Shown here: piece by piece, positions 16,273-19,878 of the stretch
How positions within the stretch are numbered: position 1 is the first letter of the stretch
Layout: each line of letters opens with the position of its first letter
Assembly (NCBI GenBank): GCA_965219955.1
Contig: OZ244799.1
Span: forward strand, 480,001-544,000
Direction of reading: 5' to 3'
DNA from: a bacterium
Lineage (GTDB): Bacteria > UBA8248
DNA: 64,000 bases
The notes under the pieces: generated by a model
What the model saw: only the letters and a program-made list of their open reading frames with translations
What the model was told of the DNA's origin: nothing
The model's database searches: none
Program-made: the position numbers and the translations under genes

Positions 16273-16724
16273 GGCCCGGCCGGGGCGGGAGGGTTCGACC
16301 CGCGCGGGGAGGGGCTGTTGAAAAAGTCTCTGCACGACTTTCGAGATCGTTTTCTGTAGGGACAGGCCTCCGTGCCTGTCCTGTATCGGGGTGAATATGA
16401 CGGGCGGGCACGGTCGAACTTCCCTCTTCGGGAAGTTCGACGCCCCTACAGTCGTCATTCGAGGGATCGCATGTATGGTTGTTGAAAATGCCTCCGAAAG
16501 CAGGGAATGGGTTTCCCGTAGGGGTCAGACATATATGTCTGACTGCGTGTCCGCCCGGTTGTTGATGCGGACCTTGTCGATGCTTTCTCCCCCTGTTGGC
16601 GTTCCAGCCCCCGATATCCGTTCGATATGCGAACTTCGCGTTTGGGTCGATGGGGTGGACGCCTCCTTCCGGCGGATTAGAATGTGGCGAGACGACGTCA
16701 CACACCGCCCGGAAGGAGACGACC

Positions 16725-17750
16725 ATGGGAGGAGTCTACATCATCGGGGTCGACTTGGCGAAACACAGTTTTCAACTCCACGGCGCGTGGGCGGACGGGC
16801 GGGTCGCGTTCCGCAAGAAGCTGACGCGGGCGAAGGTGCTGGAGTTTCTGTCGTCGCAGCCTCGATGCGTGGTGGCGATGGAGGCGTGCGCGAGCGCGCA
16901 CTACTGGGGGCGCGAGGTCGGCAAGCTCGGCCATGAGGTTCGGCTCATGCCGCCGGTCTACGTGAAGCCCTACGTGAAGCGCCACAAGAACGACGCGGCG
17001 GATGCGGAGGCCATTTGCGAGGCGGCCACCCGGGCGACGATGCGCTTCGTGGCGGTGAAGAGCGAAGCGCAGCAGGGGTGTGGGATGGAGTACCGCACGC
17101 GGGATTTGCTGGTGGGTCAGCGCACGCAGGCGCGCAACGCGCTGCGCAGCCACCTGGCGGAGTTCGGGGTCGTCGAGCGGCAAGGGCCCGTGGGCCTCAC
17201 ACGGCTGGCGGCGGCGGTTCGGGGAGCGGAATCGGGCCTGCCCGAGGAGGTCCGCGAGTTGGGCGGGATTCTGCTCGCCCAGATTGGCGGCCTCGATGCG
17301 AAGGTCCGGGAGTTGACCGGACGGCTCCGGGCGAGCGCATACGCGGACGAGGAGGCGCGGCGTCTGATGAGCATCCCGGGTGTTGGTCCGATTACGGCGT
17401 CGGCGATCCGGGCGTTCGCGCCGCCGGTGGAGAACTTCCGTCGGGGCCGTGACTTCTCGGCCTGGCTGGGTCTGGTTCCCCGGCAGCACTCCACGGGGGG
17501 CAAGCCCCGTCTGGGGGGCATGTCGAAGATGGGCCAGCGCGACGTGAGGCGTCTGTTGATATCGGGCGCGATGTCGGAGATACGCTGGGCGGGGCGTCGC
17601 CGGAAGCCGCCGTGTCCGTGGCTGGCGCGGATGCTGGCGCGCAAGCCGAGGAAGGTGGTGGCGGTGGCGCTGGCGAACCGGATGGCGCGCATCGCGTGGG
17701 CGCTGATGCGGAACAAGGATGTCTACAGGGAGCCGGCGCCCCTCGCCTGA
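16725..17750 (+). CDS. IS110-family DEDD transposase/recombinase
   Basis: GVDLAK, MEACA, KNDAADAEAI, SIPGVG, GLVPRQHSTGG (catalytic Ser). Confidence 0.95.
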   Translation: MGGVYIIGVDLAKHSFQLHGAWADGRVAFRKKLTRAKVLEFLSSQPRCVVAMEACASAHYWGREVGKLGHEVRLMPPVYVKPYVKRHKNDAADAEAICEAATRATMRFVAVKSEAQQGCGMEYRTRDLLVGQRTQARNALRSHLAEFGVVERQGPVGLTRLAAAVRGAESGLPEEVRELGGILLAQIGGLDAKVRELTGRLRASAYADEEARRLMSIPGVGPITASAIRAFAPPVENFRRGRDFSAWLGLVPRQHSTGGKPRLGGMSKMGQRDVRRLLISGAMSEIRWAGRRRKPPCPWLARMLARKPRKVVAVALANRMARIAWALMRNKDVYREPAPLA

Positions 17751-17789
17751 GCGGCGGGCGCACGGATAGAGCCGGGAGGAATGTGAGCA

Positions 17790-17970
17790 GGCCGGAGGAA
17801 GGGTAAGGGCAAACGGTCATCGAGACGGGACCGGGAAAACCAGATGCGTGTCCAGAGCCACCGAGCTCACCAGGTCGATTTGGACCCGGTCCACCTATCT
17901 CCATACGGGCCCGCGGCCAGAGTAAAGCGCCGCAACGAAGAGGCCGGATATACGACTGAGCCGAACCGCT
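17790..17970 (+). ncRNA. Putative bridge/seek RNA of the IS110 element (ends approximate)
   Basis: Stem GGACCGGG/CCCGGTCC encloses target guides TGCGTGTCC and GGTCG; a second loop carries donor guides CTCCAT and ATATACG. Confidence 0.7.
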
Positions 17971-18139
17971 TTGCGCCGAACCCTCCCCAAAAACCGCTTG
18001 CATTCTCGTGGGCGTCCATATACGGACACGCAGGTCCGCCCTTACAAAAAGCGCAGATCCTCATACATCAGGGCTTCTTCTTACCCCCCTGACAAGGGGG
18101 GGCAGGGGGGGGGGGTGGTTTTCAGGACGAGGGACCCCG

Positions 18140-19526
18140 CGAGTTACTGTCAAATGTTGTGTATGGCCGTCTTGAGTTCAGCGGCCTCCCTGCCGGTTTC
18201 TTTTTCATTCACCCCATTGATGAACCTCACGTCGGTGATCACGTCGGCCAGATGACCCAGGCCGCCCAGCCGCCCCCATCGCTTCTCGGCGCTCATGGCG
18301 AGTTGGTGAATCAGGCTCAGCGCCGTCTTCTCGCTCAGGCAGTTCCTCGTCTTCGCCGTTCGCAGCCGGATCGTGGCGAAGGTCGACTCGATCGGGTTCG
18401 TCGTCCGAAGACTCCGCCAGTGCGCCGCCGGGAAGTCGTAGAAGGCGAACAACTCCTCGCGGTCCCCCGCCAGGCACGCGGCGGCCTTGGGGTACTTCGC
18501 CTCCCAGGTGGCGAGAAAGCGTTCGAACGCCTTCTCCGCGTGCTCGCGGGTCTCCGCCCTCCACATCTCGTACAGCATCGGCCGCGCTTCGCGCTGAGCG
18601 CTTTTGGGCAGCTTGTCGAGAACGTTCGCCGTCTTGTGCACCCAGCAGCGCTGCGCCCGGGTCTCGGGATACACCTCGGCCAGCGCCGACCACAACCCCA
18701 GACCCCCGTCGCCCACCGCCAGCTTCGCCGCCTTTACCCCCCGCTCCCGCAGGCCGAGCAGAACCGCCTTCCAGCTCTCCTTCGATTCACGGAACCCCGC
18801 CTCCAGGGCCAGGAAGCGCTTGCGGCCCCGCGCGTCGCAGCCCACGACCACCAGAAGACAGCGCCGCTCCCCGCTGCGCACGTTCACGTAGATGCCGTCC
18901 GCCCACAAGTACGCGAACTCCTCGCCGCCCCAGTCCCGCTCGCGCCACTGTAAGTACTCGCGCTCCCAGCCCTCCTTGAGACGCGAGACGCTCGCCGGGG
19001 ACAAGCCCTTCACCGACTCGCCGAACAGCGCCGTGAGCGCCTCGCCGAAGTCGTTCGTCGATACCCCCTTCAGGTACAGCCACGGTATCACCGCCTCCAC
19101 GCGCCGCGTCTTGCGCAGATACGGCGGCAAAAGCTCCGAACGGAAACGCCGCCCCGCGCCCGACCTGTCCCGCGTCCGAGGAACTTGAACCCGCACCGGA
19201 CCCACACCCGTCAATACCTCCCGAGAAGGCAGATACCCGTTGCGCACCACCGCGCGGCGGCCCTGCGCGTCATGGTCGCCCGCATGCTCTTCCAGATAAG
19301 CCGCCAACTCCGCTTCCACCGCCTGGCGGATGATTCGTCGCGCGCCCGCGCGCAACAGTTCGCTCAACTCGTCTCGTAAGGCTGGATTCCTCAAGGGAAT
19401 CGTCGTATCTTCTCTCATGGTGGCGCATCTCCTTGTGCTGAATGACCGGGCTTTGGACAACCCTATTTCAGCAGGATGCGCCGCCTTCTTCAATTCAGCC
19501 CATACACAAGTTTTGAACGTAACTCG
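18140..19526 (-). mobile_element. IS256-family insertion sequence
   Basis: Imperfect ~27-bp TIRs (CGAGTTAC..TGTGTATGG); 8-bp target duplication GGACCCCG at 18132-18139 and 19527-19534. Confidence 0.92.
18150..19418 (-). CDS. IS256-family transposase
   Basis: RNGY, VPRTRDR, YLWADG, VGDG, QRCWVHK, RTTNPIES. Start MREDTT at 19418. Confidence 0.95.
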   Translation of the reverse strand: MREDTTIPLRNPALRDELSELLRAGARRIIRQAVEAELAAYLEEHAGDHDAQGRRAVVRNGYLPSREVLTGVGPVRVQVPRTRDRSGAGRRFRSELLPPYLRKTRRVEAVIPWLYLKGVSTNDFGEALTALFGESVKGLSPASVSRLKEGWEREYLQWRERDWGGEEFAYLWADGIYVNVRSGERRCLLVVVGCDARGRKRFLALEAGFRESKESWKAVLLGLRERGVKAAKLAVGDGGLGLWSALAEVYPETRAQRCWVHKTANVLDKLPKSAQREARPMLYEMWRAETREHAEKAFERFLATWEAKYPKAAACLAGDREELFAFYDFPAAHWRSLRTTNPIESTFATIRLRTAKTRNCLSEKTALSLIHQLAMSAEKRWGRLGGLGHLADVITDVRFINGVNEKETGREAAELKTAIHNI

Positions 19527-19574
19527 GGACCCCGGACAGGCACGGAGGCCTGTCCCTGCAATACGCGGTGTGGT

Positions 19575-19878
19575 TTGGTTCGTCATCCCGGTGTTTGCGC
19601 CGATCGTCGAACTGCTCGACTTTGCCGGCCATGCGTCCAGGCTGGACGTCGTCTATTGGTTCGCCATTCTGCTTGCGGTGGACCTGCAAACCTCTTTCCT
19701 GACGCCGCCGTTCGGATTTGCGCTGTTTTACATGAAGGGCGTGGCCTCACCCCAGGTCAGGATCCAGCAGATCTACACCGGAATCATTCCGTTCGTGCTT
19801 CTGCAACTGACCGGGCTGGCGCTTATCATGGCATTTCCGGGAATCGCCATGTGGCTGCCGAGACAACTGCTCAATTGA
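19575..19878 (+). pseudogene. 3' fragment of a TRAP transporter large permease (DctM-like)
   Basis: LQTSFLTPPFGFALFYMKGV...IYTGIIPFVLLQL...FPGIAMWLP. No start codon; 5' part missing next to REP/IS256. Confidence 0.8.

What the first reader, a model, noticed from the sequence alone, without database searches (positions are those of the whole stretch)
16648..18045. IS110/IS1111 bridge recombinase with readable guides, a CG core, a REP target and a junction promoter
Seen: removing the element restores TTTGGGT-CG-GACACGCAGGTCCGCCCTTAC, the right arm of a REP-like palindrome whose left arm CTGCGTGTCCGCCC is at 16543-16556. In the downstream non-coding region, stem GGACCGGG(17828)/CCCGGTCC(17885) encloses TGCGTGTCC (17845-17853, complementary to the right target) and GGTCG (17873-17877, identical to left target plus core). 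A second loop holds CTCCAT (17899, matching the left end ATGGGG with one wobble) and ATATACG (17948, right end plus core). Circularisation creates TTGCAT(17998)-N17-TACGAT. Established: IS110-family bridge/seekRNAs guide target and donor choice, and IS1111-type circles form junction promoters. Inference: an intact, programmable recombinase aimed at this genome's own repeats.
Basis: partly seen in the sequence, partly recalled or inferred. Interest (0 to 1): 0.7.

Follow-up and report, generated by a model that had tools for sequence, protein, structure and literature searches.

The report
IS1111-type RNA-guided insertion sequence in REPs
This is an intact, recently active insertion sequence of a known RNA-guided kind (IS1111 group), and its eight copies in this genome differ almost only in the guide bases that match the repeat variants they sit in.

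Summary
Window 16650-18024 is a 1375-bp IS1111-group element: a 341-aa DEDD transposase, 8-bp subterminal inverted repeats, a CG core at both junctions and a 274-nt 3' non-coding region. The genome holds 8 copies, 98-100% identical, all with open reading frames.

Across 32-41 related elements from other genomes, three of the four proposed guides track each element's own flanks or right end (0 of 1000 permutations reach the observed match). The fourth (CTCCAT) is nearly constant. The RNA fold has 28 consensus pairs, 13 with compensatory changes.

The targets are REP-like hairpins. One copy lies in a cobW-like gene at a sequence-matching site outside any REP.

New here: copies L003-L005 differ from the window copy only at 17846-48 (GCG to ATA). 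That turns the right-target guide into the complement of a second REP class, where L003 and L005 sit. L006 carries a changed left-target guide that fits the canonical REP.

The junction promoter is a weak consensus match (7 of 12), but its -35 box and spacing are conserved. No circle junction was seen.

The parts
16518..16556 (-). Neighbouring inverted REP unit (REP-2 palindrome fused to a REP-1 arm).
16640..16647 (+). Left target flank (GTTTGGGT). The last 3 nt plus the core match the left-target guide.
16648..16649 (+). CG core copy at the left junction. The same dinucleotide ends the element at 18023-24.
16650..18024 (+). The insertion sequence, 1375 bp counted with the right CG. There are 8 copies in the genome.
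16650..16655 (+). Left-end extension ATGGGG (the right donor half-site once the element is circular).
16656..16663 (+). Left subterminal inverted repeat TGGACGCC.
16656..16683 (+). Promoter-like site inside the left end (TGGACG, 16 nt, TAGAAT; 9 of 12). Not conserved in L009.
16725..17750 (+). Transposase gene, 341 aa plus stop (DEDD domain, PF02371, GLVPRQHSTG motif).
17751..18024 (+). 3' non-coding region that encodes the seekRNA/bridge RNA and the right end.
17815..17967 (+). Conserved RNA fold. P1 17815-19/17963-67; P2 17828-35/17885-92; P2b 17840-41/17882-83; P3 17855-58/17865-68; P4 17908-11/17942-45; P5 17913-17/17929-33.
17845..17853 (+). Right-target guide TGCGTGTCC, complementary to the top strand of core G plus GACACGCA. 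It reads TATATGTCC in copies L003, L004, L005 and L008.
17871..17877 (+). Left-target guide CAGGTCG, identical to the left flank plus core (5 nt match in this copy). It reads GAGGGCG in copy L006.
17899..17904 (+). Right-donor guide CTCCAT, complementary to left end ATGGGG with one U.G pair. Largely constant across the family.
17948..17954 (+). Left-donor guide ATATACG, identical to the right end plus core.
17998..18003 (+). -35-like TTGCAT of the predicted circle-junction promoter.
18011..18018 (+). Right subterminal inverted repeat GGCGTCCA.
18019..18024 (+). Right-end extension TATA plus core CG.
18025..18045 (+). Right target flank: the rest of the interrupted REP-1 hairpin (GACACGCAGGTCCGCCCTTAC).

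Best explanation
Window 16650-18024 is an intact copy of an IS1111-group insertion sequence (IS110 family). It encodes a DEDD/RuvC-like transposase with a Ser/Thr-Gly C-terminal domain. Downstream of that gene it encodes a structured RNA of about 155 nt, a seekRNA or bridge RNA.

Target recognition. One arm of the RNA is an internal loop. [quoted passage not shown] Donor recognition. Two single-stranded stretches in a multiloop (17899-904 and 17948-54) recognise the abutted ends of the excised circle: ATATA-CG-ATGGGG.

Recombination at the CG core inserts the element, without duplication, into the 5' arm of REP-like hairpins of this genome.

What is shown here: the anatomy; multiple recent copies with open frames; the guide-to-flank and guide-to-end covariation; the RNA fold; the REP targets; one sequence-matched insertion outside any REP.

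What is inferred from published work on ISEc11, ISPa11, ISKpn4 and IS621: that the RNA binds the transposase; that a circle forms; and that joining the ends makes the promoter that drives the transposase gene and the RNA.

The genome carries at least three guide alleles. Since all copies share the same ends, each allele's RNA can probably mobilise any copy in trans.
For: Protein:
- PF02371 at 8.2e-23 and PF01548 at 1.9e-13.
- NF033542 at 302 bits, cut-off 140.
- 341 aa, within the 330-350 aa range given for IS1111 transposases.
- Full-length 38-39% identity to IS4321/IS5075.
- Only the C-terminal half aligns to the IS621 and ISCro4 structures.

Copies: 8 full copies at 98-100% identity plus one 79% relative. 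All 8 reading frames are intact.

Ends: the subterminal repeat and the CG or TG core at both junctions recur in relatives.

Guides, over 32 elements, as mean longest exact match, own flank versus permuted flank:
- Left-target guide: 5.88 vs 2.54.
- Right-target guide: 6.16 vs 3.13.
- Left-donor guide: 6.91 vs 3.73.
- Each reached in 0 of 1000 permutations.
- The right-end 7-mer recurs inside the element's own non-coding region in 39 of 41 elements, against 11 of 1460 cross pairs.

Within the genome:
- L009 changes both its guides and its flanks together.
- L003, L004 and L005 differ from the window copy only at 17846-48 (GCG to ATA). This is the exact complement of the difference between the GACACGCA and GACATATA targets.
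- L006 differs at 17871 and 17875 in the left-target guide, and sits at GGG-CG.
- Both guide alleles are present in short-read contigs of run X1. ATA is the only form in X6, X7 and X18.

Fold: 28 pairs, 97.5% of cells paired, 13 pairs with changes on both sides. 0 of 500 shuffles reach this, and slid controls give 21-45% paired. G.U pairs on the + strand fit transcription in the sense of the transposase gene.

Targets: 49 REP-1 hairpins (98 two-strand hits), and 10 unoccupied perfect sites for L006's guides. L004 sits in a cobW-like gene at GGAGGT-CG-ACACGCAGG, which argues for sequence recognition rather than hairpin recognition.

Promoter: TTGC lies 17 nt (35 elements) or 18 nt (3 elements) before an NAYGAT hexamer that spans the junction, in 38 of 41 elements.

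Literature:
- The IS1111 order of the two target matches, trans action of the non-coding region, the junction promoter and the REP target of ISPa11 (Siddiquee 2024, PMC11187229; sections and passages read).
- Guide nomenclature, and donor nucleotides in a multiloop in many IS1111 members (Durrant 2024, PMC11208160; passages read).
Against: - No right-end-to-left-end circle joint appears among the joints listed for the four runs laid. These are contigs, which drop rare forms.
- The junction promoter matches the sigma-70 consensus at only 7 of 12 positions (TTGCAT 3 of 6, TACGAT 4 of 6). It would fail the scan tool's own threshold of 9 of 12 (criteria).
- In this copy the left-target guide matches only 5 nt, which 2739 of 5000 shuffles reach.
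- The right-donor guide is nearly constant (CCAT against ATGG), so its covariation is weak: 4.81 vs 4.57, reached in 3 of 1000 permutations.
- In the window copy P1 forms only 3 of its 5 consensus pairs.
- Two of 8 copies sit at sites that fit the other guide allele: L002 and L004. Six of 8 concordant is not significant by itself (one-sided Fisher 17/70 = 0.24, my arithmetic).
- The minimum-free-energy fold of the single sequence is unremarkable, z = -1.16.
- No Rfam family matched at E up to 1.
- RNA evidence is limited to contigs of a metatranscriptome from another sample, carrying a variant sequence.
Confidence: 0.93

Rival explanations
1. The element is an IS110-family transposon, but target choice is made by the protein recognising the REP hairpin. 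The short matches in the non-coding region would then be captured REP-like sequence or coincidence.
For: Most copies (7 of 8) lie in palindromic REP units. The 5-nt left-target match in this copy is not significant alone.
Against: The guides covary with unrelated, non-REP flanks across 32 elements from many phyla, with 0 of 1000 permutations reaching the observed match. L004 lies in a coding sequence that matches the guides but is not a REP. Guide alleles differ exactly at the bases that distinguish the two REP classes.
Confidence: 0.02
2. The copies are immobile relics: a past burst, now inactive. The RNA would no longer be made or used.
For: No circle junction was seen. Two copies have a right junction one base short. 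Copy L007 has a duplicated right end.
Against: Six copies differ by 0-3 bases and all 8 frames are open. An uninterrupted version of the window site exists in run X6. Contigs of an RNA library lie on 17665-18045. The stems keep pairing in all copies; the one stem change in L006 gives a G.U pair.
Confidence: 0.04
3. It is an IS110-group (IS621-like) element, with the bridge RNA upstream in the left end.
For: NCBIfam and Pfam name only the IS110 family.
Against: The upstream non-coding stretch is 75 nt, against 274 nt downstream. The conserved, covarying fold and all four guides lie downstream. An 8-12 bp subterminal inverted repeat is present. The order of the two target matches is the IS1111 order.
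Confidence: 0.01

Closest known systems
ISPa11 (IS1111 family, Pseudomonas aeruginosa)
   Same: An IS1111-type element that inserts at a fixed position in a REP. Its 3' non-coding region gives a transposase-bound seekRNA, with the top-strand match 5' of the bottom-strand match (PMC11187229, passages read).
   Different: Different host and a different REP sequence. I did not hold its sequence, so identity was not measured. Here several guide alleles coexist in one genome.
ISEc11 / ISXne4 (IS1111 family)
   Same: A downstream non-coding region is essential in cis or in trans. A circle forms with a junction promoter. The seekRNA is programmable. The two elements show natural retargeting by replacement of the target-matching bases.
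   Different: There the retargeting is between two elements whose transposases are 72% identical. Here it is between copies that differ by 3 bases in 1375. The ISEc11 target is linear, not a REP.
IS4321 / IS5075 (IS1111 family, target the inverted repeats of Tn21-type transposons)
   Same: Full-length transposase similarity of 38-39% over residues 1-334. Subterminal inverted repeats (title of the reference listed).
   Different: Different target. Distant sequence.
IS621 (IS110 group, E. coli)
   Same: An RNA-guided DEDD recombinase with a two-nucleotide core. The left guides pair with the bottom strand and the right guides with the top strand. It inserts in REPs and tolerates an rG:dT pair (PMC11208160).
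   Different: Its bridge RNA is upstream in the left end. The guide order in the loop is reversed. Its donor guides lie in a simple internal loop, whereas here they lie in a multiloop. Only the C-terminal half of the protein aligns (E = 4.2e-9).
ISPpu9 / ISPpu10 (IS110 group, Pseudomonas putida)
   Same: Insert in REPs. ISPpu10 circles carry a strong junction promoter. Alternative ends give several circle types (PMC12288879). That last point is a possible parallel to the duplicated right end of copy L007.
   Different: That paper assigns ISPpu9 to the IS110 group, without subterminal repeats. ISPpu9 makes no junction promoter.

Membership tests
IS1111 group of the IS110 family | N-terminal DEDD (RuvC-like) transposase domain | tested here: met
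   PF01548 at 1.9e-13, residues 7-146.
IS1111 group of the IS110 family | C-terminal PF02371 domain with the GL-P----S(t)G motif | tested here: met
   PF02371 at 8.2e-23. GLVPRQHSTG read in the translation. The motif is as stated. The T aligns with the S of ISCro4.
IS1111 group of the IS110 family | Transposase of 330-350 aa, related over its full length to IS1111-type transposases | tested here: met
   341 aa. 38-39% identity over residues 1-334 to IS4321/IS5075. IS1111 itself was not compared.
IS1111 group of the IS110 family | Subterminal inverted repeats of 7-17 bp | tested here: met
   TGGACGCC at 16656-63 and GGCGTCCA at 18011-18. Up to 12 bp in relatives.
IS1111 group of the IS110 family | The longer non-coding region lies downstream of the transposase gene | tested here: met
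   274 nt downstream against 75 nt upstream.
IS1111 group of the IS110 family | Insertion at a specific site without duplication beyond the shared core | tested here: met
   Flanks of 8 copies. Frame continuity at L004. The X6 contig lacks a net 1375 bp.
IS1111 group of the IS110 family | seekRNA with the top-strand target match 5' of the bottom-strand match, the two overlapping at the insertion point | tested here: met
   17845-53 and then 17871-77. Covariation.
IS1111 group of the IS110 family | Circular intermediate whose joined ends form an active promoter | tested here: inconclusive
   The predicted promoter is TTGCAT, 17 nt, TACGAT (7 of 12). The -35 box and spacing are conserved in 38 of 41 elements. 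No circle joint was listed in contigs. Activity is not testable with these tools.
IS1111 group of the IS110 family | The RNA is bound by the transposase and required for excision and insertion | not testable with these tools
   Known only for ISEc11, ISPa11, ISKpn4 and ISPst6.
IS110 group proper (IS621-like) | Bridge RNA encoded in a long left end upstream of the recombinase gene | tested here: not met
   The left non-coding stretch is 75 nt. The fold and the guides lie downstream.
REP / BIME-like repeats (the target) | Short imperfect palindromes in many copies, often in inverted pairs | tested here: met
   GGCGGAC-N6-GTCCGCC gives 98 two-strand hits, which is 49 sites. REP-2 has 12 sites. 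Inverted pairs about 55-65 bp apart occur, for example at G000 63574/63639 and 416249/416311. Whether the sites are extragenic was not checked systematically.

The most novel reading that the evidence does not exclude
Retargeting may be caught in progress inside one genome. Three guide alleles sit on an otherwise near-identical 1375-bp element, and each fits a different variant of the host's REP families.

- One allele pairs TGCGTGTCC with CAGGTCG.
- A second pairs TATATGTCC with CAGGTCG.
- A third pairs TGCGTGTCC with GAGGGCG.

The GCG/ATA switch is three adjacent transitions. They are the only differences between six of the copies.

Two copies, L002 and L004, lie at sites that fit another allele's guide. 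Because all copies share the same ends, this would be the footprint of mobilisation in trans by a sister copy's RNA.

If so, co-resident guide alleles act as a small shared guide library that widens the target range of every copy.

The right junction that is one base short (L002, L008, and contigs of X7 and X18) might mark a slipped register at the C-G-G run, or copies that can no longer excise.
Probability: 0.45. Interest if true: 0.5.

Novelty: new member of a known kind. Interest (0 to 1): 0.35.

Why it matters
The element adds no new mechanism. It is a clean natural example of the seekRNA/bridge RNA design in the less-studied IS1111 group.

All four guide segments are readable, and a fold with covariation support places the donor guides in a multiloop, as Durrant et al. 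predicted for many IS1111 members.

Its main value is as a natural experiment. Sister copies differ only in guide bases and sit in matching repeat variants. That gives ready-made allele pairs for testing how few changes retarget such a recombinase. It also allows a test of whether co-resident guide RNAs mobilise each other's copies.

It further shows that a REP family in an uncultured, probably sponge-associated or marine bacterium is under attack from an RNA-guided element. Ten perfect sites are still empty.

Tried and rejected
- Rfam scan of 16400-18300 at E up to 1 gave only two chance-level hits (ASdes, a flavivirus stem-loop). No bridge RNA or seekRNA family matched.
- The single-sequence fold of 17751-18024 is not distinctive (z = -1.16) and did not give the consensus fold. 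The consensus came only from the alignment.
- Circle junction. None of the joints listed for X1, X6, X7 and X18 runs from about 18024 back to about 16650. The back-joints in table 5c (18110 to 16354; 18045 to 16355/16356) carry other letters and concern flanking repeats. All four runs are contigs, so this says nothing about absence.
- RNA run X18. Contigs lie on 16648-16695 and 17665-18045, among them one whole contig of 181 nt on 17814-17994 with 10 other letters. Depth over 16726-17648 is near zero, apart from 7.13 in the bin 16868-16938 and 0.07 in 16797-16867. A part without cover is not evidence, and DNA can be present in such a library. I therefore use this only as a weak hint that the non-coding region is transcribed in a related strain.
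- Joints 16556/16557 to 18023/18024 ('between: not known') are REP-to-REP matches from other loci, not empty sites.
- I considered that the one-base-short right junction of L002 and L008 was an assembly error. I rejected this because the same loss at 18023 appears in contigs of X7 (depth 5.6 of 36.1) and X18 (8.83 of 15.5). A shifted-core model (core GG) does not fit the left junctions.
- I considered that L004 had lost a base. I rejected this because the cobW-like frame is continuous without it.
- I tried to fix the register of the right-target guide by homology with L016. The alignment is ambiguous by one column next to P3, so I dropped it.
ISfinder is not on hand. I therefore cannot say whether this element or a near relative already has a name. 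I made no search aimed at within-genome guide alleles, so I do not claim that they are unreported.
Full report
What is there.

The element runs from ATGGGG at 16650 to ATATACG at 18024. CG stands just outside the left end (16648-49) and also forms the last two bases (18023-24).

The only long frame in the sense of the element is 16725-17750. It encodes 341 aa carrying PF01548 (DEDD transposase) and PF02371. It scores 302 bits against NCBIfam NF033542, 'IS110 family RNA-guided transposase', cut-off 140.

Its C-terminal half aligns to the solved IS621 and ISCro4 transposases. The whole protein aligns at 38-39% identity to IS4321/IS5075 transposases on plasmids.

The upstream non-coding stretch is 75 nt and the downstream one is 274 nt. 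TGGACGCC (16656-63) and GGCGTCCA (18011-18) are subterminal inverted repeats. By the criteria in the sections of Siddiquee et al. 2024 that I read and the passages of Durrant et al. 2024, this is the IS1111 group.

Copies and boundaries.

The genome (one contig of 4.28 Mb) holds 8 full copies at 98-100% identity and one 79% relative, L009. There is also a 41%-identical homologue with a stop codon, plus fragments. All 8 frames are open.

Left flanks end in (A/G/T)(G)G(T/G)-CG. Right flanks begin GACACGCAGG or GACATATATG.

Three independent checks fix the boundaries:
- Paralogous uninterrupted repeats such as ..GATTGGGCGGACACGCAGGTCCGCCCCTAC exist.
- Copy L004 interrupts a cobW-like gene (PF02492 on the left, PF07683 on the right). 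Its frame is continuous when the element plus one CG is removed.
- A 1565-nt contig of run X6 joins 16645 to 18023 with two letters between, so a net 1375 bp is absent.

That contig reads AG where the window has GT at 16646-47. I cannot explain this beyond strain polymorphism.

The target.

The genome has a family of hairpins, GGCGGAC-N6-GTCCGCC. It gives 98 two-strand hits, which is 49 sites because the stem is palindromic. There are also 12 sites of GTCAGACATATATGTCTGAC and 4 intact sites of GTCGGACAT(A/G)TATGTCCGAC. These often occur in inverted pairs.

The element sits inside the 5' arm of such hairpins.

Guides.

I collected 80 loci that encode relatives at 56-81% amino-acid identity, from MAGs and isolates of several phyla. 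I found their ends through the subterminal repeat.

The plan is conserved: flank, then CG or TG, then ATGG(G/A)G, then the repeat, then the body, then the repeat, then four bases, then CG or TG, then flank.

In 32 distinct elements with usable flanks, I measured the mean longest exact match between each guide block and the element's own half-site, and compared it with permuted pairings:
- Left-target guide: 5.88 own vs 2.54 permuted.
- Right-target guide: 6.16 vs 3.13.
- Left-donor guide: 6.91 vs 3.73.
- Each was reached in 0 of 1000 permutations.
- Right-donor guide: 4.81 vs 4.57, reached in 3 of 1000. It is nearly constant, CCAT against a constant ATGG. L051 and L069 show CGCCAT with ATGGCG.

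In the same genome, L009 has changed the left-target guide, the left flank, the left-donor guide and the right end in step.

In the nomenclature of Durrant et al., the four segments are:
- 17845-53: the right-target guide.
- 17871-77: the left-target guide.
- 17899-904: the right-donor guide.
- 17948-54: the left-donor guide.

The order, with the top-strand match first, is the one Siddiquee et al. report for IS1111 members.

Fold.

RNAalifold on 35 elements gives six helices. Counting them gives 28 pairs, 97.5% of cells paired and 13 pairs with changes on both sides. 0 of 500 shuffles reach this, and sliding the partners gives only 21-45% paired.

The target guides face each other across an internal loop between P2/P2b and P3. 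The donor guides lie in the multiloop closed by P1, P2 and P4. Durrant et al. note this arrangement for many IS1111 members.

In the window copy P1 forms only 3 of its 5 consensus pairs.

Guide alleles inside the genome.

- L003, L004 and L005 differ from the window copy at exactly three bases, 17846-48 (GCG to ATA). This changes the right-target guide from the complement of GGACACGCA to the complement of GGACATATA.
- L003, L005 and L008 (26 differences in all, also ATA) sit at GACATATATG sites.
- The window copy, L006 and L007 carry GCG and sit at GACACGCA sites.
- L006 differs at three bases. Two are in the left-target guide (CAGGTCG to GAGGGCG), and its flank is GGG-CG, the canonical form of the repeat. 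Ten such sites are still unoccupied. The third change turns a stem pair into G.U.

Short-read contigs confirm the polymorphism. Both forms occur in X1. ATA is the only form in X6, X7 and X18, so ATA is probably the older allele.

Two copies are exceptions: L002 has a GCG guide at a TATATG site, and L004 has an ATA guide at an ACACGCAGG site. Six of 8 concordant is not significant on its own. The weight lies in which bases vary.

The non-coding region acts in trans in ISEc11, and all copies here share the same ends. Mobilisation by a sister copy's RNA is therefore the simplest account of the exceptions. This is inference.

Junction promoter.

Joining the ends gives TTGCAT, 17 nt, TACGAT, which matches 7 of 12 consensus positions. 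TTGC at 17 nt (35 elements) or 18 nt (3 elements) before an NAYGAT hexamer is kept in 38 of 41 elements. Junction promoters are documented for ISEc11, ISEc21 and ISPpu10, but not for ISPpu9. I rate it likely but not shown.

A promoter-like site inside the left end (16656-83, 9 of 12) is not conserved in L009.

Distribution.

Related elements (76-85% identity, with 97-98% partial matches in G011) occur in 9 of the 12 other genomes of the same genus that were searched, and in 2 of 6 of another family in the class. Their guides again fit their own flanks.

Verdict.

The element is a new member of a known kind. Not shown here are the circle, the RNA ends, and activity.

Noticed in passing
G000:C1:4139968-4140037 (copy L007): The right end is followed by an exact second copy of the element's last 70 bp. 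The duplication runs between the internal ATATACG that encodes the left-donor guide and the terminal ATATACG. Copy L007 therefore has two right ends 70 bp apart. Slippage, or recombinase action on the guide-coding DNA, could make this.
   Followed up: partly
G000 copies L002 (694059) and L008 (4205791); window position 18023: The right junction reads ATATA-GG-ACATATATG, one base shorter than in L003 and L005. The two copies belong to different sequence lineages. The same one-base loss appears in contigs of runs X7 and X18. Unexplained.
   Followed up: partly
window 16646-16647 versus the contig of run X6: The uninterrupted version of this site in X6 reads AG where the occupied site has GT. The occupied allele fits the left-target guide better than the empty one does.
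   Followed up: no
G000:C1:1959370-1960744 (copy L004): This copy interrupts a cobW/COG0523-like GTPase gene: PF02492 on the left flank, PF07683 on the right. It is the only one of the 8 copies that does not lie in a REP.
   Followed up: yes
G000:C1:1860727-1860986 (L010) and 3812420-3812614 (L012): L010 is a 5'-truncated relative that keeps the end of the transposase gene, the RNA region and the right end, with guides that fit its own flank. L012 is an RNA region plus right end with no transposase gene, directly after what reads like a tRNA gene.
   Followed up: partly
L049 and L019 (other genomes): In both, the right end is followed by internal sequence of an element of this family rather than by host DNA. 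In L049 the sequence starts at the right-donor guide region. In L019 it starts just after a left-donor guide. Both recall the duplication in L007.
   Followed up: no
L087 and L089 (other genomes): Each element's right-target guide fits the other's right flank better than its own.
   Followed up: no
window 18079-18117: A C-run/G-run hairpin (CCCCCTGACAAGGGG) occurs 111 times in the genome. It is a further abundant repeat family next to the REP units.
   Followed up: partly
window 18150-19586 (- strand): A 478-aa Mutator/IS256-type transposase (PF00872, 1e-71) lies right beside the element. The region is a cluster of mobile and repeated DNA.
   Followed up: partly
window 16414-16442: A perfect hairpin (TCGAACTTCCC-TCTTC-GGGAAGTTCGA) is present 5 times in the genome. 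The stretch 16300-16441 has very high contig depth in all DNA runs laid.
   Followed up: no
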